Shown: piece by piece, positions 32,501 through 58,705 of the stretch
How positions within the stretch are numbered: position 1 is the stretch's first letter
Layout of the letters: each line of letters begins with the position of its first letter
NCBI GenBank assembly: GCA_963575745.1
Contig: CAUYUJ010000029.1
Span: 1-64,000, forward strand
Source: Prorocentrum cordatum
Taxonomy: Eukaryota
DNA: 64,000 bases
Direction: 5' to 3'
Notes under the pieces: model-generated
Seen by the model: the letters and a program-made list of their open reading frames with translations, nothing else
Databases searched by the model: none
What the model was told of the DNA's origin: nothing
Made by a program: the position numbers and the translations under genes

Positions 32501-35500
32501 TCCCGCCGCCTTCCGCCGACCCTCCGTGGCCCTCCGCCGAGGAAGACATGACAACTCCCGCGATCCTCGAAGGCAAGACCCCTTTTTGTCGGGGATGGAC
32601 AGACCTCCCTTTAGTAAAACGTGGTTTAGTGAAAACGACCTCGGGCCCAAACCTGGCGGGCGCGAGCCTGGAAAATAACGGCCGCGGCGCCCTCTCGAGA
32701 ACCGCAAACGGACAATTCACTAATCGACGTGTCAGGGTTGGAGGTCTGTCCACCCCCGATTCTGGAACGCCCCACGTTTTTTTGCGGACGTTTGCGAGGA
32801 GACACCTTCGCGAGTCGTGGGACGAGCTCGATGAGACTCCTGGTGTTTGGTCGGGCATGTCCCCCTACAGGCGGACGAAAGCTCAGAAATATTCAAAACA
32901 TGTTCAAAAGTACTCAAAAATGCTAGAAAAATCGTCCCCATACTATTTTTGGACTACTTTCAAACATTCCCCCTCTAGAGGGACAGGCCCGACTTAATCC
33001 TGGTGTCTGGAGGCCGCCTCTTTGGGCCACGGGGGGCGGTCGAACAGCTGCACCAGAGGAGAGACCAATCCGGGGCTGACACAAGACGAAGCCAGGACGA
33101 GGATAAACTCGTGTGAAGACTAATCGAGAATCTCTGAGAATCGGCGGGTTTGAAAGATGTATCGGGCGCCGCGGCCTTCTCAGAGCGTTCTGGAATGCTC
33201 TGAGAGCGTTCCGGATCGCTCGGGAACGGATTTGTCCTCGCCCTAGCCCCGTCTGGCACTGGATGGAAAAGACACCACCTCGCCATCTCTCGGACGTCCA
33301 TTCCCTGTGCACTTTTCGTTTTCGCTCGTGCTCTTCGCGCCAGATGATCCAGGATGCTCCTCACGGGTCCTCGCCGAAAACAACATGCACATGTCCGAGC
33401 GACGCAAAGACACTGGACGACACGCCGAAAAACGGCGCTGGATGACGACAGCGTGGGGAGCTCCACGGAGAGGCGACTCCACAACACCGCGTCGGAGAGG
33501 AGGACGACCCTGGAGGATTACAATGCCCACAGCACCAGGAGGAAACTCACGATGAGGAGGAGGAGGAGGAGGAGAAGGAGGAGGAGGAGGAGGAGGAGGA
33601 GGAGGAGGAGGAGGAGGAGAGGGAGGGGAGGAGGAGGGGGAGGAGGAAGAGGATTTTTTACATCAACGCTCAGAGCCTCAGGCCAATGAGGAAAGTGATG
33701 AAGGAGTAGCCGAAATCGAAGAAGACGTGATCGTCCCAGGAAAGCGGTAGCTCCCAGCATCTGTTGGAGTACAATGCAAAAGGCGAACATGTCATAGAAG
33801 ATCCAATAACTGAAACCACAACCCAGTAACGCCGTAGATCACGTCGGACTGCTGAGCCCATACAGAAGTGCCGATAAGGGCCGCTCCAGGAAACAAAGCT
33901 CCGCACGAGAAAAAAAAACAGTGCCACACGACGCCACACGCCGTAGATCTCGTCGGACAGCTGAGCCCCTCCAGAACGCACCAAGTAGGCCGTACCAGGA
34001 ATCAAAGCACCGCACGTGAAAAAAAAACAATGCCATATGACGCCACGAGCCGTAACCCCAGAAGCTGGATATCCTGAAATGGGCAATCACGGACAACAAG
34101 CACTCCAAGAAGAAAACAACGACGCCGAAGATGAAGAAGGCGGACCGAACAAGAACCCCTCGCCTGGGTCAGGTGGAAGACCCACAGGACACCACACACG
34201 TGACTGCCGAGCACGCACATCCTCGACGTCGGCATCGCCCTTCATGTCCGTCGTGGAGCCCAGCCACTCGCTGGCGATGGCCGCACGGGCCCGCCACCAG
34301 CCTGGGCCGCGGGGAGCGGCACCCACGTGATGGCCAACGGCCACGTCTGGAAACCCTCCCCTGGCGGACATGGGAGATGGCATAGCTGAAGCTGATGCCA
34401 TCTGGAGCGCGCCTGGATACCCTCCCCTGGCGGAACTGGGAGATGGCCGAGCTGAAGCTGATGCCATCTGGAGCCCGTCGCTAACGCCCTGCACCTCCTT
34501 GCCCGAGCAGACCGAGGAGAAGACGGCGTCAGCAGAGGTGTAGCCAGCATCCGCTGCAAAGAGCTGAGCTGCCAGGGAGAGCGCCACCTGGAAACCGTCC
34601 CCGAACGCGACGCCCAGCTCCACGTCGGGCGGCGTCCACGACCCTGGAGCAAGCCAGCTCCCGATCGGCTCAAGCTGCTTGCCGAAGTTGCAGCACGACC
34701 CGAACCCGAGCCCCTGCAGCAGGGACTCGTCTTGGACACCGTCCATGGCCACGACGCCGTCGCCGAACTTCGCGTGGGAGGAGTCGCTGATATCCAGGCC
34801 CGACCGCTCCGCTGTCCACCACTCGAGCCTGGGCCCTGCCGCCGCGGCAGGGAGCTCGGCGGAGGAGGCCGAGGCGAAGCCGCCCTCGGGGGCTTCAGCC
34901 GCGTGCCACGCTGCGTTGCGCCGCAAACGCGCGGCGCCCGGGATCCGCCGGCGGGCTGACAGGCAGCGCAGCGCGGGCCGCGCCGCTGCCTCCCGGTCGC
35001 GCCAGGAGCCGGGCTCGCCGGAGCCGAAAGCAAGGCGTAAGGCGGCCTCGCAGGCACGCTGCGCCCGAGCTCGGGCCAGGCGGCGAGCAGCCGAGGGACC
35101 GAGGCGTGCAGCGTCGGCTTGTCGCATCGAACTTGGCCGCCACATCGAGGGGCAGCCCACCGTCGCCATTGCTCGAGCCCGCCCTCGCGCGCCCGAGCCA
35201 GGCTTGAGCCAAAATGGCTACGGAAGGGGAGGAGGAGGAGGAGGAGGAGGAGGAGGAGGAGGAGGAGGAGGAGGAGGAGGAGGAGGAGGAGGAGGTCTGG
35301 GGATGCGGCTCTCCAGCCGCTGCAGCCGGCAGACCTCGGCAGAGCCGGCGCGCCTCGCACGGCGCGAGGCCGCCTCCCGTGGGGGCCTGCGGAGGCCCCG
35401 CGGGGCCGAGGCGGGGGCCGAGGCGGAGGCACGGCGGGCTCGCGGGCTCGGTGCTGCGCTGGCACGACGGCGGGATCTGCTGCAGGCTTCGGAAGCCGGG

Positions 35501-50677: not shown

Positions 50678-52545
50678 CCCTCCCCGAACCGACCTCGATC
50701 TGCTATACCTCTGTCCGGCCGCAGTCCGTTGATGGCCTCGGGGCCCGCGGACAGGGCGAGACCCGTCGGGGCCCGTTTCCCTCAGGAGCCGCTTGCTTCC
50801 TGGCGATCCCACCTTCCACACACCTCCCCCGCTTCATCCTCCATCCCCATCCTCCCTCTCCTCCTCCTCCTCCTCCTCCTCCTCCTCCCTCCTCCTCTCC
50901 TCCTCCTCCCTCCTCCTCCTCTCTGGGCATCGCTCGGACGTCCATTCCCTGTGTTTTGTTCGGCTCCGTGCGTGGTTATTCTTTCGCCAACGGATCGAAG
51001 CATGCTCCTCGAGAGGTCCTCGCCGAGGGAAAAAGTGCACACGTCCGAGCGATGCCCAGAGATCTTGGCAGGCCAGACCCGCTCCCCTCGCCGCCCCTCC
51101 GCCCACCCGCGACCCCGCGGCGCCGCCCCTCGCTCCGAGTGCCCGCCTGCCCCGAGGGTGCGCGGGCCCCCCTCCTGGAGCGCCCAGCCTGCTGTGCCGA
51201 CCGCGGCCTCCCCTGCCAGGAGGAGGAGGAGGAGGAGGAGGAGGAGGAGGAGGAGGAGGAGGAGGAGGAGGAGGAGGAGGAGGAGGGGGAGGAAGATCAA
51301 CCGGCGTCGGGCCGGGAAGCCGGCTTCGGCGGCGGCTGCGGCTGCCCCAATCATCGGCTACACGCAAGAGTGACCCTGGGTAAGAATGACCTTTGGTGCG
51401 CGGCTTGTTGGGGGGCGCGGGGGGACCAAACCTGAGCGCGCAAGCCGCTGCTACCGCTTCGTTTTCAGCCATCCGAGGGCCCATCTGTGCCCGCACCCAA
51501 GGTCACTCCGGCGAAAGGTCACTCTTACGTCTAGTCGAAATCACTGCAAGATCAACCGGCGTCGGGCTGGGAAGCCGGATTCGGCGGTGGGCAAGCCTCC
51601 CTTTAGCAAACCTCCCCTCAACGAAAACGGCCCAGGACCGAAACACACGGACATGGACCCGCAAAAAGGACGGCCGCGAGGCCCCCTCGCGAACCGAAAA
51701 AATCGCAATCCGCTAATCGGCGTGTCAGGGTAGGAGGCCTGCCCACCCCCGACGGACAGAACCGCCACGTTCGTCGGATCGGGCTGCGTCGGCACGGAGT
51801 CGAAGTCGAGTCGGATCGGCTAGCATCGGGCTGGCCAGGATCCCTGTCGGAGCGGATCGCATCGAGGCAGACCCTGCGTTGCCCCTCCCCGGCCATTTCA
51901 CGGCTGGCATGCAACCTGCACTCCTGAGCCCTGCGCTGCTCTTGCGACCCCGCCACGGCCTCGCGGGCCTGGACGGGCCACCACCCGTCCTTGCCGAGGC
52001 AAGGGGGGGTGGGCCTTCTGGACGTGGGCCATGGCCTTCGCCAGCCTCTCCTTCGGGCTGGCAGCAAGTGGGGCAGCGGAGGAGGAGGAGGAGGAGGAGG
52101 AGGAGGAGGAGGAGGAGGAGAAGGAGGAGGAGAGGAGGAGGAGGAGGAGGAGGAGGAGGGGAGAAAGGAGGGGGGAGGAGGATAAGCAGGAGGAGGAGGA
52201 GGCGGAGGAGGAGGAGGTGAAGGAGGAGGAGGAGGAAGATCAGCAGGAGGAGGAGGTGGAGGTGGAGGAGTAGGAGGAGGGGAGGAGGAGGATGAGGACG
52301 AGGAGGAAGGACGAGGAGGATGAACGCCCGTCAAGAAGGGCAAGCTAGAACAGGACGAAACTGATGACGATGATGATGATGCTGATGATGATGATGATGA
52401 GGAGGAGGAGGAGGAGGAGGAGGAGGAGGAGGAGGAGGAGGAGGAGGAGGAGGAGTCGAGCGTGCGGAGGGGGAAGGCTCCAGGCTCCCGACGGCCGCGC
52501 CCCGCGCGGCGCCAGCAGCCCCCGCGCACGCGCTTACCTGCTCAC

Positions 52546-52745
52546 AGGCAGCGCGCCAGGAGGAGGATGCCGAACATCTCCTCGGATGTGATCTGGATGC
52601 TGATCGCGATCAGCGGCGGCTCCACGGAGCCGAAGTGGATGAAGTACGTCGGCATCTCCCACACGATGCCGATCAGGTGCAGGTGGATGTCCGTGTCCAG
52701 GGGCCGCCCCCACCCGACGGTGGCGATGGTGCTGACGCAGCACGG
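52546..52745 (-). CDS. Probable host exon of unknown domain (CVSTIATVGWGRPLDTDIHLHLIGIVWEMPTYFIHFGSVEPPLIAISIQITSEEMFGILLLARC), possibly an upstream exon of the kinesin gene
   Basis: Almost all codons end in G/C in this frame; followed by a GTGAG donor and a GC-rich intron-like flank; directly abuts the LINE 3' end. Confidence 0.55.
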
Positions 52746-52749
52746 GCGG

Positions 52750-53590
52750 CGGCTTCTTCATGGTCTTCGTGGCCCTCAGTGCCGCCCTAGCGGCCGTCAG
52801 GGTGGCCTCCGCCGAAACGTGGGTCTCCTGCCTGAGCATGTGGTACGTGAGGCAGGCAACCGCGATGGACTCGGCGCACTCGTTGGACTGGTCTATGAGC
52901 CCGAGCTTCGCGAACTCGGTGGAGAGAGGGGGCGCGCCGCAAGCACGCCCCACAGCAAGCGCCAGTGGCGCGCAAACGAGGTAGTGGCACATCTTGTCTT
53001 GGCCGCTTGCGCAGCCGAAGATGCACAGGCGCCTACCACACGGGTAGGCGATGCGGTAGGACGTGAGCCACGAGAAGGACAGCGTCCTCATCCACGCTGT
53101 CGCCCACGATGGGGGCAGCCTTTTCATGGCGGTCTGGATGTCATGCATGATGGTGGGGTTGTGGATGAAGAGCTCGCTAGCGTGTGGGAGCTCTTTCACG
53201 ATGCGGTCCTGCAGGAAGGGCCCGATGCCGTCGGCCCCGCGGGTGGTCAGGGCCGAGGCGTAGGCATGCTTCTGCGCGAGGCCAGGCTGCTCGTTGGCGA
53301 CCGCCGCCCGCGCGGCCTCGATCGCTGGTGCCACCAGCTGGTGGGGGTAGTACACGTGGTCAGAGGTGGCTGTCGCGATCTGGTGCATCGTCTCCACAAA
53401 GGCCTGCGACTGCCACCACGGCGGAGAGAGATGGAGGGCACCCCGCGCGGCACCCTCGAGGGTCTGCTGGAGGCCGTAGGAGTTCAAACCTGCGTGAAGT
53501 CTCTCACGGATCTCGGCGAACTTCTTGAACGTCGAGGTCACCGCGCGGACGATTGTCGCTAGCAATCTGAGCTGGAGGGACCTCGGCGCG
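52750..53590 (-). CDS. Frameshifted C-terminal part of LINE ORF2 with CCHC zinc knuckle
   Basis: CIFGCASGQDKMCHYLVC; removing one base from the G7/C4 run at 53591-53601 joins it to the RT frame. Confidence 0.8.
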
Positions 53591-56500
53591 GGGACCCCCC
53601 CAGTCCTTCAGTAAGGGCCAGTCCGTCAACCTGAATGCGCCGTTCGGGAAGCGCAGGATGGAGGTGTTGATCCAGCTCTCATGCTTGAAGTGTTCGTGCG
53701 GGAGCAAGGCGTATTGGGCAAGGTAGCCGAGGACGGGGGGCGCGCGCCCGTTGTACAGGGAGACTGCCCCAACGGCTGGCGCATCACTTGCACTGTGCGC
53801 CTTTACTCGGGAGCGGTACTTGTTGAAGGCCTTCGCGTAAATCAGCTGGTCCGTGGCACCGGGGCCCAGCAAGAGGCCGAGGTAGGTGAGGTGGTCGCAT
53901 ATTTTGAAGTACTTGAACTTCGGGACGATGTTGAGCAACGTATTCTTGAGCTTGAGGATGAGGTCGGCGTTGACCTGGCCTGCCAAGGGGATGATGTGGC
54001 ACTTCGGCGCCTTCAACTCCAGACCAGCCAGAATTTCCATGCAGAGCATGACGTCGGCGAGGTAGACCAGGTAGGCGGCGGCCCGAAGGACGAGCCCGAG
54101 GTCATCAGCGCATGCGCGGCAGAGTCCACGGCCTTGGGCTTCGAGGACGGTCTCGAGGTTGAGGAGGAAGCTTGCAGTGCCCATTGCGCACAGCGTGCCG
54201 CTCCAGCCGCATCCTTGGATGATGCCCGACCTGATATAGAAGAGCGGGACGTACTGGCCAGCGCACGGGGCCATCGCGAGGATGTTGTTGCACATGGAGT
54301 CAAAGAACATGAGGATCGCTTCGGGAGCGCCCATGGCCTTGAGCGCCAGACGGATGAACTGGTGGGCGAAGCTGGGGAAGGCCTGCGCGATGTCCAGCGA
54401 CACGAGCACTGGCAGCATGTCCTGGGCGTCTGGATCGGCCGAGGCAATGCGGCTCTCGGCGTCAAGCTCGAGGATGTTGTAACCGAAGTTACGCCGATGG
54501 ATGAACCCACGCTGTGAGGCTGGGACCACCTCGGCTGCCACCACTGCCGTCGCAGCATTCATCGTGCTGCTGATTATCTTGAGGGACGTGTTGCGCAATC
54601 CTAGGACACGGACTTTGGACGGGTCTCGATGGCAGCCGTGATGTTCCGAGTCCTCTGGTTCCACACCTTTGGGCAAGAAAGCTTGGACGGTCGCGTTCAC
54701 TTCGTCGGGGAGGATCCCGCCGTTGAGCATGTAGCACATGACATCCCAGAGAACCTCGGTGCACTTCTCGTGCGCGGACCAGGCGAGATACGGCAGTCCG
54801 TCGAGGCTTGGTGAAATGGAAGACGAGCGCCTGGCAAACTTCTTGAGCGTCTCGTAGTCTGGCGGCCTGTACTTGGAGAAATCGATGGTGGGCGAGAACT
54901 GGTTCAGGTAGACAGCGGCCTTGGTCACGTCGACGGTCTTGCCTGCGAAGACCGGCTGCCAGTGCTCCACAAGCTTCTTGAGCCGCTCGTTGGGGCCCGT
55001 CACGGTGCCCTCGCTGGTCTTGACTCCCGTCAGGATCAGGCGCTTGCTGAGTGGGTTCCAGAGCTGGAGCTTCCTTTGCAGGGCTTGGGTTTGTCCACGT
55101 GCTTGAGCGGGTCGAAGGCGCCCACGTTGAACTGCTTGGTCGATGGCTGCCTGACGCTGTTCAGCGTCTTGGCGGAAGAGGTTGCTTGCCCACTCCTCGA
55201 ACTTGGCATGATCGATGAGCCCGACACTGTCACCATTGATCTGGATGTGTTCTTGTGCGACTAGGTGCGAGCGAAGGAGGCGAGCAGCGAGTTGTCGGTC
55301 TTGGCGCCAAGCCGCGCGTGAGATCGACTTCGCTACCTGAAGGAGCACGCCGCCTCTGCTCGGATGCATTTCATGAAGACGGTCACGAGCTTCACGTGCA
55401 ATTTGTCTGAGAAGATCGGTGGTCTGAATCAGCTTGGTCGGCGGGGGCAGGTGGTCCATGGGGGGGGCGGCAAACACCTTGTCGGCAATCTCCCTGAAGA
55501 CGGGGGACTTGACGATGTACTGGGCGATCGGCTGGTTCGGCGAGGGTTTGGCATCGCGCATCGTGAAGGAGACGAAGAGGGCGGCATGGTCACTAACACG
55601 ACGGCGTGAGAGGTCTTCAGGTGTGGAGAAGGTGGCGGACGTGACAGCCAGCTGCAGCATCTGAGTGGGAGTGAACAAGCAGAAGCATCTGTCGATGGTG
55701 GTCTCGGCCTTCGTCTCGAAGCAGTAGTGCGTGGTGTCGGCGCTGTCGATCTCCACTAGGTGCTTCAGGGCGTTGTGCCACTTGCGGGCCGATGCTTTGG
55801 ACGTTTCAGTTGGGTTCGAGTTGCCCTTTGCCACAGGGTCCAGGAGCTTCAGCTTCCCTACGGCGGAGAAGTTGCAATCCCCAGTGACGAACAGGACAAC
55901 GCGGCTCGGGTCGGACCTCGCCCACTGAAGGTCGCTGTTGATGCGCGTGGTGATGTTCTGGATGGTGGCGTTGCTGAGGTCGTAGTTGTGGATATTGTAG
56001 AAGATCATCACTTGGTCGCCAGCACGGCAGACAGAGCGTAGAACACGGCCAGGGAAGACGGGGTCGCTCACAGCATTCATCCCAGCAGGGAACACAGTGG
56101 CAACCCCGCCACTGATAGTGCCATGATGTCCAGGAGCAAAGGAGGAGTGCATGTCTAGGGCGCTGTCGATCTTCCGCATGAAGGCAAGGAGCTGGCCGTG
56201 GTTCTGGTGGACCTCCTGGATGCCCAGGGCCATCTTGCTCAGCGGCATGGACTTGAGGTACGCGGACTTCTCCACGACGCGTCTGCCCTGGTAGCCCAGG
56301 AAAGCGCGAGCGTTCCATGTGCCGACGGCCAGGCAGGCCGTCGGCCCACAGGCCAGGCGGTTCTGGCTGCGCGCCAGCTCGTCAAAGCCAGAATTGCGGG
56401 GCGGCTTCAGGTGCAACAACAACGTTGGCGGCGTTCTTGAGGGTCGTGCGGTCGATGCCCAGCGCGGGGAGGCCGGTGTCCTGGAACGTGAGGATGGTCG

Positions 56501-57682
56501 GCTCGTCCCTGCCTGGGCGGACGCTGTACGCAATGACGGGGGCCCAGCCTGCAGTGATCCAGGCCTTGGTGCGGTCCACGCGCCAGACATGGTTCGGGAA
56601 CTCGCGTTCCATGGCCTGGCGGAGGCGCTTCCCCACGATCTCCGTCTTGATCTGCTTCGGCGACTTGTCGGGGCCCATCCGCAGCTCGACCGCCCCGTGG
56701 CCCGAGACAGCATCGGCGTAGATGCGCACCCAGGTGCCGTTGGTCGAGCGCATGCTGTCCAGGACTTTCTGCACACGGCGGCTGGCGGGGCCAGGGAGGC
56801 CCGTGAACTTGATGGTGAAGAATTTGGCGGTGTCGTTGCCAGTGACAGTGAAGTCAGTCTCGCGGATGTCGCAGCCCACCGCGAACTTGGTGAGAGACTC
56901 GGTGGCCTTGGCCAGGGTGACCAGGCCGTCCGCGTGGACCTTGATGATCGTGGCGTCGATTTCGCGATCGAAGTCGCGGCTGGTGAACTGCTGTTTGATC
57001 GGCTGCTTGTTGGCCGTGGCAAGCTCGTGTTGCAATACTTTGATCTGCTCCGCCATGAGCTCGATTGCTTTGTCGGTCTTCTCCTGTTTGGCCTCCACTT
57101 CGCCGACGCGAATTTTGAAGGCGTCGAGCTGTTGCTGGAAGTGCTTCCTCGTGGCGTCGATCTGCTGGCCGACGGCGAGGTGGACGTTCTTTTCGATCTT
57201 GGCGCCCAACCCGTCAATGCCGTCCTGGGCGGCCTTGAGCGCCGACGAGATGGGATTGGTGGCGGAGCTGACCACGGTGGTGACGGTCGAAATGATGGAC
57301 TCTTTGATTGCGGTCTCCATCGCGTCGATCTTCGACTGGAGGGACTGCACGTAGGCCATGGTGGCGTACGCGTCCAGATCAACTTCATCTCCCTGCGGTG
57401 GCGAACGGGAGCGGTCAGCCCTGCCGCCAGGATCGCCACCAGGCTCGCCAGGAGGAGGACGCTTCGAAATCCCTTTGCAGCGCAGTGGCATCGCGGCGGG
57501 CGAGCCTCCTTTCTCCGACATGGCGAGGAAGAGGTCTGGGACGCTCGCTCACACAAGAACGGGAAAGGCCTCCGTTTACCCGTGACGGCGGACGTCGGTG
57601 CGGGTGAAGTCTGCCAGGCCACAGGTGGCCTTGCCTGCCGCGGACTAGCGGTGTCCGCTTGTTCCCCTGATGGACTCACCAT
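53504..57682 (-). CDS. LINE ORF2: apurinic-like endonuclease + reverse transcriptase
   Basis: APE: GTWNARA, LGIQEVH, GDCNF, TIDRCF, SDH. RT: SPSLDG, FLPKG, SQRGF, LDIAQAF, GIIQGC, CADD (54101-54112), LTYLG. One-base frameshift near 53591-53601. Confidence 0.93.
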   Translation of the reverse strand: MVSPSGEQADTASPRQARPPVAWQTSPAPTSAVTGKRRPFPFLCERASQTSSSPCRRKEARPPRCHCAAKGFRSVLLLASLVAILAAGLTAPVRHRREMKLIWTRTPPWPTCSPSSRRSTRWRPQSKSPSFRPSPPWSAPPPIPSRRRSRPPRTALTGWAPRSKRTSTSPSASRSTPRGSTSSNSSTPSKFASAKWRPNRRRPTKQSSSWRSRSKYCNTSLPRPTSSRSNSSSPAATSIAKSTPRSSRSTRTAWSPWPRPPSLSPSSRWAATSARLTSLSLATTPPNSSPSSSRASLAPPAAVCRKSWTACARPTAPGCASTPMLSRATGRSSCGWAPTSRRSRSRRRSWGSASARPWNASSRTMSGAWTAPRPGSLQAGPPSLRTASAQAGTSRPSSRSRTPASPRWASTARPSRTPPTLLLHLKPPRNSGFDELARSQNRLACGPTACLAVGTWNARAFLGYQGRRVVEKSAYLKSMPLSKMALGIQEVHQNHGQLLAFMRKIDSALDMHSSFAPGHHGTISGGVATVFPAGMNAVSDPVFPGRVLRSVCRAGDQVMIFYNIHNYDLSNATIQNITTRINSDLQWARSDPSRVVLFVTGDCNFSAVGKLKLLDPVAKGNSNPTETSKASARKWHNALKHLVEIDSADTTHYCFETKAETTIDRCFCLFTPTQMLQLAVTSATFSTPEDLSRRRVSDHAALFVSFTMRDAKPSPNQPIAQYIVKSPVFREIADKVFAAPPMDHLPPPTKLIQTTDLLRQIAREARDRLHEMHPSRGGVLLQVAKSISRAAWRQDRQLAARLLRSHLVAQEHIQINGDSVGLIDHAKFEEWASNLFRQDAEQRQAAIDQAVQRGRLRPAQARGQTQALQRKLQLWNPLSKRLILTGVKTSEGTVTGPNERLKKLVEHWQPVFAGKTVDVTKAAVYLNQFSPTIDFSKYRPPDYETLKKFARRSSSISPSLDGLPYLAWSAHEKCTEVLWDVMCYMLNGGILPDEVNATVQAFLPKGVEPEDSEHHGCHRDPSKVRVLGLRNTSLKIISSTMNAATAVVAAEVVPASQRGFIHRRNFGYNILELDAESRIASADPDAQDMLPVLVSLDIAQAFPSFAHQFIRLALKAMGAPEAILMFFDSMCNNILAMAPCAGQYVPLFYIRSGIIQGCGWSGTLCAMGTASFLLNLETVLEAQGRGLCRACADDLGLVLRAAAYLVYLADVMLCMEILAGLELKAPKCHIIPLAGQVNADLILKLKNTLLNIVPKFKYFKICDHLTYLGLLLGPGATDQLIYAKAFNKYRSRVKAHSASDAPAVGAVSLYNGRAPPVLGYLAQYALLPHEHFKHESWINTSILRFPNGAFRLTDWPLLKDWGGPRAEVPPAQIASDNRPRGDLDVQEVRRDP
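56382..57521 (-). CDS. LINE ORF1 protein (379 aa), coiled coil plus a putative RNA-binding region
   Basis: GC3-rich ORF directly upstream of the APE domain; long heptad-like region (QQQLDAFKIRVGEVEAKQEKTDKAIELMAEQIKVLQHEL), as expected for L1-type ORF1p. Confidence 0.8.
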   Translation of the reverse strand: MSEKGGSPAAMPLRCKGISKRPPPGEPGGDPGGRADRSRSPPQGDEVDLDAYATMAYVQSLQSKIDAMETAIKESIISTVTTVVSSATNPISSALKAAQDGIDGLGAKIEKNVHLAVGQQIDATRKHFQQQLDAFKIRVGEVEAKQEKTDKAIELMAEQIKVLQHELATANKQPIKQQFTSRDFDREIDATIIKVHADGLVTLAKATESLTKFAVGCDIRETDFTVTGNDTAKFFTIKFTGLPGPASRRVQKVLDSMRSTNGTWVRIYADAVSGHGAVELRMGPDKSPKQIKTEIVGKRLRQAMEREFPNHVWRVDRTKAWITAGWAPVIAYSVRPGRDEPTILTFQDTGLPALGIDRTTLKNAANVVVAPEAAPQFWL

Positions 57683-57704
57683 CTTGGGCCAAAATGGCTA
57701 CGGA
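57683..57704 (-). other. Dinoflagellate spliced leader copy with 1 mismatch (TCCGTAGCCATTTTGGCCCAAG)
   Basis: 21/22 match, immediately followed by ATG. Confidence 0.95.
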
Positions 57705-58705
57705 GGAGGAGGAGGAGGAGGAGGAGGGATGGGGCGAAGGGAGGGAAAAGTCGAGGAGCAGGAGTCGAGGAGGAGTAGGAGGAAACGGTACTGTGTTTCA
57801 TCATGATCAGCAGGGGATCATTGACACCCCACTTGCTAATGCTGTCGGCGGGAGGATCTCTGGGCTGGGGTATCGGAGTCCACGCCTGGCGAATTGTCGC
57901 GGCTGCGGGGACCGATTTTCCCTGGCGAGGCGGTTGGGGGTGCCCCGGGGGGCTCGCGTGGGAGCTTTGCCGTATTACCCTGACGACTCCTTTCGATAAC
58001 TAGTTGCAAGCTCTATGGTCTCTGACTTTTTGGCACTGGCTCAAACTAGCGAGCGAGGAGCAGGAGCAGGAGGAGGACGATGCTGATGATGATGATGATG
58101 AGGAGGAGGAGGAGGAGGAGGAGGAGGAGGAGGAGGAGAAGGAGAGGAGGAGAAGGAGGAGGAGGTGTCGACGAGGAGGAGGAGGAGGAGGAGGAGGAGG
58201 AGGAGGAGGAGGAGGAGGAGGACTCGATAAGGAAGGAGGAGGAGGTGGAGGAGGAGGAAAAGGAGGAAGACGACGAGCACAGCGAAGCATCGGCGTTTAC
58301 TCCGAGGGCGGGGGCGGTGGACGCAGAGGAGACCACCGAGCACCGGGGCGGGGCGGGGCGGTTCTGCCTCTGGGGTCGGCGCGGGGCTCCTCTTACGCAA
58401 ATGTTCCAATTGATTCTTCTCCCCCTACTCCTCGTGCTCCTCCTCCTCCTCCTCCTCCTCCTCCTCCTCGTGCTCCTCCTCGTCCTCCTCCGCCTCTTCG
58501 TCCCCGTGCCAACGACCCCCCAGACTTCTTGGTTCTCGATGTGGTTGGGGACGCACGGGGCAGCCTTTAAGGATCCCTGCTGGGGTCCGACGAGCACCCC
58601 GACCACGAGGGCCAGGGAGTGGGGGTCGGGGCGACAAAGGCTTAATTCGGCCAGCGCATGCACGAAAGGAGCCTGCCATGGCTCGAGGCTGGGCCCGGGG
58701 ATCCA

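What the first reader, a model, noticed from the sequence alone, without database searches (positions are those of the whole stretch)
56382..57704. Dual-coding 5' architecture: the SL-adjacent first AUG opens ORF2 through the whole of ORF1
Seen: ATG at 57682 directly follows the SL and is in frame with APE-RT, with no stop across the 379-codon ORF1. ORF1 starts at the next AUG, 161 nt later, with none in between. There is no in-frame Met between 57682 and a point inside the APE domain. In this overlap frame any ORF1 CTG/GTG/ATG followed by an A-starting codon would create TGA. At the nine Leu/Val sites I checked, ORF1 uses CTC/GTC (e.g. CTC AAG, GTC ACC, CTC ATG, GTC AGC) although CTG/GTG are used elsewhere. 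Inference: selection keeps the overlapping frame open, and ORF1:ORF2 stoichiometry is set by leaky scanning at a cap-proximal AUG. This differs from the reinitiation or frameshifting known for other LINEs.
Basis: partly seen in the sequence, partly recalled or inferred. Interest (0 to 1): 0.85.

Follow-up and report, generated by a model that had tools for sequence, protein, structure and literature searches.

The report
LINE whose ORF2 frame spans ORF1
A dinoflagellate jumping gene (a LINE) keeps the reading frame of its copying enzyme free of stop codons all the way through its first gene, back to a start codon that touches the spliced leader, and distant relatives do the same, which points to an unusual way of making two proteins from one message.

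Summary
The core observation holds. On the minus strand a 22-nt DinoSL relic (57704-57683) abuts an ATG (57682). That ATG opens a 1392-codon frame running stop-free through ORF1 (57521-56382, +1 frame) into the APE-RT. One sub-claim is wrong: in-frame Mets exist at codons 99, 324 and 365.

The open overlap is not chance. P(no stop) is 0.001 under synonymous shuffling and 0.00045 with codons drawn from the element's own ORF2 usage, and the ORF2 control behaves as expected. It also replicates. Both metagenome relatives recovered with DNA (L001, L002; ORF1 about 29-31% identical to ours) have ORF2 in the same +1 frame, stop-free over all available ORF1 codons (223 and 157; combined p about 1e-4). 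A third relative, P0147, decodes to the same layout.

Leaky scanning is not supported, because AUG1 has a strong context. A near-identical peptide, P0153, joins AUG1 in frame to ORF1 through absence of a 32-nt GT-AG segment. My best reading (about 0.35) is that this segment acts as a frame switch: retained gives ORF2, removed gives ORF1. I file it as a new variant of LINE organisation. Translation itself is untested.

The parts
57683..57704 (-). Relict dinoflagellate spliced leader (22 nt), the 5' end of the element
   Evidence: Sequence read. The 15-nt core pattern occurs 3 times in the window against 0 expected. One X1 contig that matches the element ends exactly at 57704 (table 8, record 8).
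57680..57682 (-). AUG1, directly after the SL; context cccaagATGg; in frame with ORF2 in the genomic sequence
   Evidence: A second 5' variant (6 X1 contigs and 1 X2 contig) keeps SL+ATG and the same spacing to 57669 (table 7).
57548..57579 (-). 32-nt GT...AG segment whose absence puts AUG1 in frame with ORF1; candidate frame-switching mini-intron
   Evidence: Removing exactly 32 nt gives 87 of 89 identity to P0153. Three equivalent placements exist, and this one starts GTAAAC and ends TGTGAG. At least 10 X1 DNA contigs cover 57556, and no skip or indel is listed there (tables 3-5).
56382..57521 (-). ORF1 (379 aa): disordered N-terminus, long helix, alpha/beta RNA-binding-like domain
   Evidence: Homologues P0003-P0006, L001 and L002. 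AF2 model. The Foldseek top 8 hits are human L1 ORF1p, E 1.2e-3 to 1.2e-2.
56382..57682 (-). Stop-free ORF2-frame read-through of the leader and all of ORF1 (433 codons). It is S/R/P/T/A-rich with pI 12.
   Evidence: No Pfam family.
56381..56387 (-). ORF1 stop context CTT TGA C, lying inside ORF2's conserved N-terminal S-G-F motif
   Evidence: The resemblance to the prfB +1 shift site is recalled, not tested.
56315..56351 (-). GC-rich hairpin (10-bp core stem) 30-66 nt after the ORF1 stop
   Evidence: z = -2.5; 4 of 200 shuffles fold as well.
53504..56381 (-). ORF2 proper as open in this copy: APE (about 56362-55580) and RT (about 54622-53990)
   Evidence: RVT_1. R2 RT hits in the PDB. BLASTP to the PF03372-bearing P0147, E 2e-40. 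Invariant APE catalytic columns.
52534..53600 (-). ORF2 C-terminal domain, displaced into another frame by a frame change near the G-run at about 53595
   Evidence: 52% identity over 276 aa to the C-terminus of P0005, E 7e-81. Five X1 contigs lack one letter at 53595 (table 4).
57705..57727 (-). (CTC)n tract abutting the SL; a similar tract lies beyond the 3' end (about 52399-52456)
   Evidence: The same (CCT)n+SL junction occurs at 35225-35290.

Best explanation
This is a multi-copy, L1-like LINE of a GC-rich dinoflagellate. Its transcripts carry the spliced leader, so each copy begins with an SL relic.

Its APE-RT gene has no usable start of its own. Instead the ORF2 frame is kept stop-free, by selection on ORF1's synonymous and dipeptide choices, through all 379 ORF1 codons up to an AUG that abuts the SL.

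ORF2p is therefore made as a long protein: a basic leader of about 430 aa whose sequence is essentially unconstrained, followed by APE-RT. It is made by ribosomes that start at AUG1 on RNA that retains a 32-nt GT-AG segment (57579-57548).

When that segment is removed, the same AUG1 falls into the ORF1 frame and yields an N-terminally extended ORF1p. So the ORF1:ORF2 ratio would be set by how often the segment is removed, perhaps supplemented by initiation at AUG2, rather than by leaky scanning.

Shown: the anatomy, the statistical excess, and its recurrence in distant relatives. Inferred: translation from AUG1, that the 32-nt removal happens at RNA level, and preferential copying of the segment-retaining RNA.
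For: Open frame beyond chance in the window:
- P(0 stops) is 0.001 (5 of 5000) under synonymous shuffling and 0 of 5000 under codon-order shuffling. It is 0.00045 with ORF2 codon usage.
- 24 of 24 NTN|A sites use C at position 3.
- ORF2's own +1 frame is as expected: 27 stops against 23.9.

Replication in relatives:
- Two loci were recovered with DNA, and both show it. In L001 ORF1 runs 3-671 and the ORF2 frame is open from 1 to 969. In L002 ORF1 runs 59-529 and the ORF2 frame is open from 3 to 1247. In both, ORF2 is ORF1's +1 frame, with 0 stops over 223 and 157 codons.
- P(0) is 0.00045 and 0.018 with ORF2 codon usage. My Fisher combination of these gives about 1e-4.
- The stricter within-ORF1 shuffle gives 0.004 and 0.19, which combine to about 0.006.
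- L001 and L002 share 43% ORF1 identity and align at nucleotide level only over 35 nt.
- The 312-aa N-terminal extension of P0147 decodes in the same frame relation to ORF1 residues about 116-378. z is 16 and 38, against -0.9 and -1.2 for the other frame. Positive controls on L001 and L002 gave z 6.7-14.8 in four of five comparisons and 1.4 in the fifth.

No own start: ours, P0147 and L002 have no Met near the APE start.

Only the absence of stops is constrained: +1-frame identity between L001 and L002, outside the last 12 codons, is 36 of 132 against a null of 30.3 (P=0.09).

AUG1:
- It is in frame with ORF2, with a strong context.
- It is kept, with the same spacing, in a second 5' variant (table 7).

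Frame switch:
- P0153 (89 aa) starts at AUG1 and runs into ORF1. It matches the window at 87 of 89 residues only if exactly 32 nt are absent, and one of the three equivalent placements is GT...AG with a pyrimidine-rich 3' part.
- No such skip is listed among the 552 X1 DNA contigs laid, at least 10 of which cover the segment.
Against: - No translation or RNA evidence was obtainable. No RNA run was listed.
- P0153 is one short sequence whose origin I cannot verify. It could be a gene-model intron or a DNA copy with a deletion.
- A 32-nt intron would be extremely short for a dinoflagellate. One GC-rich species has a mean intron length of 4.7 kb, and about 80% of its acceptors are AGG; here the acceptor is AG|C (PMC10666404, Table 2 passage).
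- No 5' ends are available for L001, L002 or P0147, so an upstream in-frame AUG is shown only for this family.
- 33 of 41 more distant ORF2 relatives start with a Met within 33 residues of the APE start, so the layout is not clade-wide. Gene-caller start choice may, however, hide open frames.
- The L002 result alone is weak (P=0.19 under the synonymous shuffle).
- The window copy is itself broken downstream.
Confidence: 0.35

Rival explanations
1. A single unspliced mRNA is used: AUG1 opens the long ORF2, and ribosomes that scan past it start ORF1 at AUG2, so leaky scanning sets the ratio.
For: The same anatomy and the same evidence of selection apply. There is no ATG in any frame between AUG1 and AUG2. 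AUG1 lies only 22 nt from the cap if the SL is the true 5' end.
Against: - AUG1 has A at -3 and G at +4, which would make ORF2p the major product, the reverse of what LINEs usually need (recalled).
- Another SL relic in the window has an ATG 3 nt after the SL that opens a long ORF, a hint that SL-proximal AUGs are used here.
- The absence of intervening ATGs is expected in about 1 in 6 such stretches (my own estimate from base composition).
- This version leaves P0153, where AUG1 is fused to ORF1, unexplained.
Confidence: 0.22
2. The open +1 frame is selected, but ribosomes enter it elsewhere. Possible routes are +1 frameshifting early in or throughout ORF1, at the ORF1 stop (CTT TGA C), or from internal in-frame AUGs on shorter trans-spliced RNAs. 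AUG1 being in the ORF2 frame would then be a coincidence, and AUG1 would really belong to ORF1.
For: - P0153 shows AUG1 reading into ORF1.
- AUG1 being in frame and the leader being open is only about 0.09 by chance (1/3 times 0.27).
- The ORF1 stop context CTT TGA C equals the classical prfB shift site (recalled), and a hairpin follows it (z=-2.5).
- In-frame Mets exist at codons 99, 324 and 365.
- No 5' ends are known for the relatives.
Against: - A shift at the stop, or starts at codons 324 or 365, would need only a short open stretch, not about 380 codons in three or four lineages.
- The stop context is not conserved: L001 and L002 have TCA TAA TGG, whose ATG is in the wrong frame.
- Six ORF1-frame ATGs precede the internal ORF2-frame Mets at codons 324 and 365, and two precede the one at codon 99.
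- Diffuse frameshifting has no precedent that I know of.
Confidence: 0.25
3. Chance or composition. GC-rich coding sequence simply lacks stops in this frame, and nothing is translated there.
For: - The window is 61% GC, and long alternative ORFs are common in it. The antisense 405-aa ORF at 56589-57806 is fully explained by codon usage: the shuffle mean is 0 stops.
- A second SL-headed unit (7544-3440) has a 1359-codon ORF over a 394-codon inner ORF, and shuffles there give P(0)=0.79.
- The finding was picked post hoc from a very large scan.
Against: - Calibrated shuffles give 0.00045-0.001 for the window.
- Independent relatives at 48-49% GC reproduce the layout, with combined p about 1e-4 to 6e-3, and P0147 adds to this.
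- The +2 frame has 6 stops inside ORF1, against 9.5 expected.
- ORF2's own +1 frame has 27 stops.
Confidence: 0.08

Closest known systems
L1-type LINEs (human or mouse L1)
   Same: - Two ORFs.
- ORF1p has a coiled coil followed by an RRM/CTD-like domain; the Foldseek top 8 hits are human L1 ORF1p.
- ORF2 carries APE and RT, with a Cys/His-rich C-terminal domain.
- ORF2 translation that does not depend on its own AUG is known for L1 (passage in PMC5009743).
   Different: In L1, ORF2 lies downstream of ORF1 after a short spacer and is reached by termination and reinitiation. Here ORF2's frame runs through the whole of ORF1 to a 5' AUG. L1-clade membership by RT phylogeny was not tested.
SART1 and other stop-start coupled LINEs (UAAUG)
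   Same: ORF1 and ORF2 abut or overlap with no intergenic spacer (passage in PMC3894237). L001 and L002 even contain TAATG at the ORF1 stop.
   Different: That ATG is not in the ORF2 frame, the window copy has no ATG there, and coupling would not need a 380-codon open frame.
+1 programmed frameshifting (prfB, antizyme, Ty1/Ty3 Gag-Pol)
   Same: ORF2 is in the +1 frame. The window's ORF1 ends CTT TGA C, which is identical to the prfB site as I recall it.
   Different: The site is not conserved in relatives. Frameshift systems keep only a short overlap open.
Overprinted genes of RNA viruses read by leaky scanning (e.g. paramyxovirus P/C, norovirus ORF4)
   Same: Two long frames lie on one mRNA. 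The second frame is compositionally odd and poorly conserved. These viral cases are recalled; I saw only search-listing abstracts of reviews on such genes.
   Different: Here the overprinted stretch is only a passage to a conserved enzyme rather than a protein with its own conserved sequence, and the upstream AUG is the strong one.
Retroelements that regulate ORFs by splicing (Ogre LTR elements, copia, spliced L1 RNAs); recalled, not checked in a paper
   Same: Partial removal of an intron decides which protein a retroelement RNA makes.
   Different: No LINE that I know of uses a mini-intron whose length is not a multiple of three to move one AUG between ORF1 and ORF2. The intron status is also unproven here.
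DinoSL-tagged retrogenes of dinoflagellates
   Same: An SL relic at the 5' end of a retrocopied unit (abstracts of PMC6050394 and PMC12014239). Two further relics lie in the window.
   Different: Those papers, as far as the listings and abstracts show, treat host retrogenes, not the architecture of the LINE itself.

Membership tests
LINE / non-LTR retrotransposon | Reverse transcriptase domain | tested here: met
   Pfam RVT_1, E 1e-7, aa 1021-1231. R2 RT chains in the PDB, E 2.4e-4.
LINE / non-LTR retrotransposon | APE-type endonuclease N-terminal to the RT | tested here: met
   Pfam itself gives no hit on our APE. BLASTP to P0147, which carries PF03372, gives E 2e-40. The catalytic E, N, D, N, D, D-H columns are invariant in 15 sequences.
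LINE / non-LTR retrotransposon | ORF1p of coiled-coil plus RRM/CTD type | tested here: inconclusive
   The AF2 model has mean pLDDT 58.5, with a helix at 49-172 and an alpha/beta domain at 192-370. The Foldseek top 8 hits are human L1 ORF1p, but only at E 1.2e-3 to 1.2e-2.
LINE / non-LTR retrotransposon | Multi-copy, with copies of graded divergence | tested here: met
   552 contigs of run X1 were laid: 58 at 99% or more, 193 at 95-99%, 193 at 90-95%, and 108 below 90%.
LINE / non-LTR retrotransposon | 3' tail and target-site duplication | tested here: inconclusive
   No poly(A) is present. (CTC)n tracts lie at both ends. No TSD could be defined.
DinoSL-tagged retrocopy | 22-nt spliced-leader relic at the 5' end | tested here: met
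   57704-57683. The core pattern occurs 3 times in the window against 0 expected. The consensus itself is recalled.
Dual-coding (overlapping) genes | Second frame open far beyond what shuffles allow | tested here: met
   P = 0.001, 0 of 5000, and 0.00045.
Dual-coding (overlapping) genes | Open second frame conserved in diverged relatives | tested here: met
   L001 and L002 (2 of 2 loci with DNA) and P0147. The 5' ends of the relatives are unknown.
Dual-coding (overlapping) genes | Purifying selection on the second frame's amino-acid sequence | tested here: inconclusive
   L001 against L002: 44 of 145 against a null of 35.4 (P=0.025). Without the last 12 codons, P=0.09.
Dual-coding (overlapping) genes | Second frame is translated | not testable with these tools
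   No RNA, ribosome-profiling or proteome data were reachable.
Leaky scanning | Weak context at the upstream AUG | tested here: not met
   cccaagATGg has A at -3 and G at +4. The rule is recalled and may differ in dinoflagellates.
Leaky scanning | No AUG between the two starts | tested here: met
Programmed +1 frameshift at the ORF1 stop | Conserved shifty site at the frame junction | tested here: not met
   The window has CTT TGA C; L001 and L002 have TCA TAA TGG.
Stop-start coupling (SART1 type) | ORF2-frame AUG overlapping or adjoining the ORF1 stop | tested here: not met
   There is none in the window. The ATG of TAATG in L001 and L002 is in the third frame.
Spliceosomal intron (the 32-nt segment) | GT...AG borders with a pyrimidine-rich 3' part | tested here: met
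   57579-57548, GTAAAC...TGTGAG. By my estimate, the chance of GT-AG in one of the 3 equivalent placements is about 1%.
Spliceosomal intron (the 32-nt segment) | Absent from RNA but present in DNA | tested here: inconclusive
   It is absent from P0153, whose RNA origin is recalled and unverified. It is present in at least 10 DNA contigs, and no skip is listed.
Spliceosomal intron (the 32-nt segment) | Length and acceptor typical of dinoflagellate introns | tested here: not met
   The segment is 32 nt with an AG|C acceptor. In one GC-rich species the mean intron length is in kilobases and about 80% of acceptors are AGG (PMC10666404 passage).

The most novel reading that the evidence does not exclude
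A clade of dinoflagellate LINEs has abandoned a separate ORF2 start. Both proteins are initiated at one spliced-leader-adjacent AUG, and a 32-nt mini-intron whose length is not a multiple of three acts as a frame switch. Spliced RNA makes ORF1p. The rarer intron-retaining RNA makes ORF2p after reading through about 430 codons of ORF1 in the +1 frame. Cis-preference then ensures that only intron-retaining RNA is copied back, which is why DNA copies keep the segment.
Probability: 0.3. Interest if true: 0.9.

Novelty: new variant of a known kind. Interest (0 to 1): 0.75.

Why it matters
How LINEs get a little ORF2p from a bicistronic RNA is a long-standing question. The known answers are reinitiation, stop-start coupling, IRES and 2A.

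A lineage in which ORF2's frame is held open across the whole of ORF1 would be a further, structurally different answer. It would also be a rare eukaryotic case of a long overlap, about 1.1-1.3 kb, maintained only as a stop-free passage.

The layout leaves a simple sequence signature: ORF2 in ORF1's +1 frame with zero stops. That signature can be used to annotate these elements, which gene finders currently mis-model as ORF1-ORF2 fusions with invented introns (P0003-P0006).

If the 32-nt switch is real, it links SL trans-splicing, cis-splicing and retrotransposon stoichiometry in organisms where retroposition has shaped huge genomes.

Tried and rejected
- No whole genome is held for the window, so no copy census or dN/dS analysis was possible.
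- There is no other copy or protein-level relative of the element inside the window.
- No RNA holder was listed among sequencing runs. The contigs laid were short, and only 40 of 532 differences were shown, so codon-position spectra could not be computed.
- The five differences shown inside the overlap (57556, 57468, 57311, 57192, 56391) do not create a stop in either frame (my reading).
- The first metagenome scan, with ORF1p alone, found no relative. Viral contigs and genome contigs gave none.
- Scans with the ORF2 alignment A2 could not run, because it has no conserved stretch.
- A protein search with the extension against proteins of 765-2436 aa gave no hit.
- Cluster look-up for P0153, P0003 and P0147 was unavailable.
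- This scan's earlier notes held nothing on this genome or sequence.
- Rfam gave no match in 52300-58100.
- Pfam gave nothing on the 432-aa extension, on our APE segment or on the C-terminal domain.
- I considered the second SL-headed unit (7544-3440) as an in-window replicate and rejected it. It has no homology to the LINE and no domain, and its overlap is within chance (P=0.79).
- The decoding test found no ORF1 under the N-terminal extensions of P0078, P0118, P0127 or P0057. P0104 is only suggestive (z=3.9).
- With the harsher score offset, the decoding test failed its own-sequence validation (z=0.7), although it passed with the unshifted scoring (z=6.4) and in four of five L001/L002 positive-control comparisons.
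- Leader RNA folding is not unusual (z=-1.35).
- Literature searches found no description of a LINE with ORF2 overlapping all of ORF1, or of dinoflagellate LINE architecture. Supplements were not read.
Full report
**What is there.** The window is 61% GC. On the minus strand, 57704-57683 is a complete 22-nt dinoflagellate spliced-leader relic, one mismatch from the consensus as I recall it. Its 15-nt core occurs three times in the window against none expected.

The next three bases, 57682-57680, are ATG. That ATG opens a 1392-codon ORF ending at 53504. The ORF carries an RT (Pfam RVT_1, E 1e-7; R2 RT chains in the PDB). It also carries an APE domain, recognisable by homology to PF03372-bearing relatives and by invariant catalytic columns. 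Pfam itself does not hit our APE.

ORF1 (57521-56382, 379 aa) lies wholly inside this ORF, and the long frame is ORF1's +1 frame. ORF1 is a real, conserved protein:
- It has homologues at 88%, about 55%, about 50% and 29-39% identity (P0003-P0006).
- A model shows a disordered N-terminus, a 120-residue helix and an alpha/beta domain.
- The best Foldseek matches to that model are the human L1 ORF1p trimer, at marginal E-values.

The family is multi-copy. 552 short contigs of one run lie on it, with identities from above 99% to below 90%.

This copy is not intact. The ORF2 C-terminal domain sits in another frame (52% identity to the C-terminus of P0005, E 7e-81). Five contigs lack one letter in a G-run at about 53595.

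**Checking the observation.** The ORF2 frame has 0 stops between 57682 and 56382. The third sense frame has 7 over that stretch, 6 of them within ORF1. There is no ATG between 57682 and 57521.

All 24 ORF1 codons with T at position 2 that precede an A-starting codon end in C. In the non-overlapping ORF2, 19 of 66 such codons end in G.

| Null model | Mean +1 stops | Frame open |
|---|---|---|
| Synonymous permutation | 4.6 | 5 of 5000 |
| Codon-order permutation | 7.7 | 0 of 5000 |
| Codons drawn from the element's own ORF2 usage | 6.7 | P=0.00045 |

The null is calibrated: ORF2's own +1 frame has 27 stops against 23.9 expected.

The 405-aa antisense ORF (56589-57806) is trivial, because ORF1 uses no TTA, CTA or TCA codons (shuffle mean 0).

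One sub-claim is false. In-frame Mets occur at codons 99, 324 and 365 of the long ORF.

**Relatives.** Because the finding was picked post hoc, independent replication matters most. A search with the long ORF found 2322 relatives. Of the 150 listed, 41 include the APE N-terminus, and 33 of those begin with a Met within 33 residues of the APE start, often M..SG[LV]F. So an own ORF2 start is common in the wider group. Gene callers that forbid overlaps could, however, produce this picture artificially.

Three relatives differ from that pattern.

*P0147.* This protein comes from an ENA metagenome assembly on a 2.5-kb contig. It has 312 residues before its APE. I back-translated this extension into degenerate codons and read it one base back. 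It then aligns to ORF1 residues about 116-378, with z=16 against ours and z=38 against the ORF1 of P0006. The other frame gives z about -1. The method recovers the known answer on L001 and L002 in four of five comparisons (z 6.7-14.8; 1.4 for L002 against the ORF1 of P0006).

*L001 and L002.* A scan of metagenome contigs with an ORF1 alignment returned two loci. Both show the same layout:
- ORF1 homology is E 4e-21 and APE homology is E 4e-6.
- ORF2 is ORF1's +1 frame.
- There are no stops over all the ORF1 codons the contigs contain, 223 and 157.
- These contigs are only 48-49% GC. They share 43% ORF1 identity with each other and are alignable at DNA level only over 35 nt at the ORF1 stop.

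| Locus | P(0), synonymous shuffle | P(0), codon-order shuffle | P(0), ORF2 codon usage |
|---|---|---|---|
| L001 | 0.004 | 0.0003 | 0.00045 |
| L002 | 0.19 | 0.047 | 0.018 |

My Fisher combination over the two loci, depending on the null, gives p of about 1e-4 to 6e-3. I conclude that the stop-free +1 frame is maintained by selection in at least this part of the clade.

**What is constrained.** Between L001 and L002 the +1-frame amino-acid identity barely exceeds what ORF1 conservation imposes. It is 36 of 132 against 30.3 outside the last 12 codons (P=0.09), and it is clearly higher only at the ORF1 stop. There ORF2's conserved N-terminal S-G-[LF] motif begins.

All four extensions are basic (pI 11.3-12.0) and almost free of Asp and Glu. 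I take this to be a by-product of the frame. So the overlap behaves as a passage that must stay open, not as a protein domain.

**How ribosomes get into the frame.** Ours, P0147 and L002 have no Met near the APE start. Stop-start coupling is excluded, because the ATG of TAATG in L001 and L002 is in the third frame.

A +1 shift at the stop is conceivable in the window. The context is CTT TGA C, prfB-like as I recall it, and a hairpin follows (z=-2.5). But the site is not conserved, and such a shift would not need 380 open codons.

In this family the frame reaches AUG1. A second 5' variant (6 X1 contigs and 1 X2 contig) keeps SL+ATG and the same spacing (table 7).

AUG1 has A at -3 and G at +4. 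Another SL relic in the window is followed after 3 nt by an ATG that opens a long ORF.

**P0153.** This was the unexpected result. It is the only database protein matching the extension (89 aa; source label a EukProt set, which I recall to be transcriptome-derived).

It equals the window at 87 of 89 residues if exactly 32 nt are absent. One of the three equivalent placements, 57579-57548, is GT...AG with a pyrimidine-rich 3' part.

Because 161-32=129 is a multiple of three, removal moves AUG1 from the ORF2 frame to the ORF1 frame. No such skip is listed among the DNA contigs, at least 10 of which cover the segment.

**Best reading and its weaknesses.** My best reading (about 0.35) is a frame-switching mini-intron:
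- RNA that retains the segment gives ORF2p from AUG1 through the open overlap.
- RNA that has lost it gives ORF1p.
- Preferential copying of the RNA that made ORF2p would keep the segment in the genomic copies.

Several things weaken this. Thirty-two nucleotides is far below usual dinoflagellate intron sizes, and the acceptor is AG|C rather than AGG (PMC10666404 passage). No 5' ends are known for the relatives.

The rivals are:
- leaky scanning on one RNA (0.22);
- entry into the frame elsewhere, with AUG1 belonging to ORF1 (0.25);
- chance (0.08).

**Known systems.** The passages I read describe reinitiation, UAAUG coupling, IRES and 2A for LINE ORF2 (PMC3894237 and PMC5009743). Five full-text searches found no LINE whose ORF2 frame spans ORF1 and no description of dinoflagellate LINE architecture. 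I therefore file it as a new variant of LINE organisation. Translation of the overlap remains to be shown.

Noticed in passing
window 56589-57806 (+): A 405-aa antisense ORF runs across ORF1. It is fully explained by ORF1 using no TTA, CTA or TCA codons: the shuffles give 0 expected stops.
   Followed up: yes
window 53575-53600 and 52534-53574 (-): The window copy's ORF2 changes frame near a G-run at about 53595. Five contigs of run X1 have one letter fewer there. The downstream frame carries the conserved Cys/His-rich C-terminal domain. This is either a dead copy or a homopolymer assembly error.
   Followed up: partly
window 7544-3440 (-): A second SL relic (7544-7523) is followed by GCC ATG, which opens a 1359-codon ORF. 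That ORF overlaps, again in the +1 relation, an inner 394-aa ORF (7301-6117) that to my eye has a zinc-finger-like Cys cluster and helical repeats. It has no LINE homology and no domain, and at 75% GC the overlap is within chance (P=0.79 synonymous, 0.06 codon-order).
   Followed up: partly
window 35203-35290 (-), 57705-57727 (-), 52399-52456 (-): (CCT/CTC)n tracts directly precede two of the three SL relics and also follow the element's 3' end. Contigs of another organism (X4) also join (CCT)n to the SL (table 7). This may reflect microsatellite targeting by the retrotransposition machinery, or a polypyrimidine tract for trans-splicing.
   Followed up: no
window 57671-57682 (-): AUG1 is followed by GTGAGT, a textbook 5' splice-donor-like hexamer. 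In the second 5' variant (6 X1 contigs and 1 X2 contig) the ten bases after the ATG (57679-57670) are replaced by ten different bases, which keeps the frame (table 7).
   Followed up: no
L001 642-676 / L002 500-534: A 35-nt block around the ORF1 stop is 91% identical between two elements that are otherwise unalignable at DNA level. This is where ORF1's C-terminus and ORF2's conserved N-terminal motif overlap. It could be double coding constraint or an RNA signal.
   Followed up: partly
window 56315-56351 (-): A GC-rich hairpin with a 10-bp core stem lies 30-66 nt after the ORF1 stop (z=-2.5). The stop itself sits in CTT TGA C.
   Followed up: partly
proteins P0003-P0006: Public gene models of this family fuse ORF1 and ORF2 into one protein by skipping sequence at the junction and inside ORF1. 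These appear to be annotation artefacts caused by the overlapping frames.
   Followed up: partly
L001 864-969: The ORF2 frame of L001 breaks inside the APE and continues in another frame (1-969, then 864-1859). This is a decayed copy or an assembly error.
   Followed up: no
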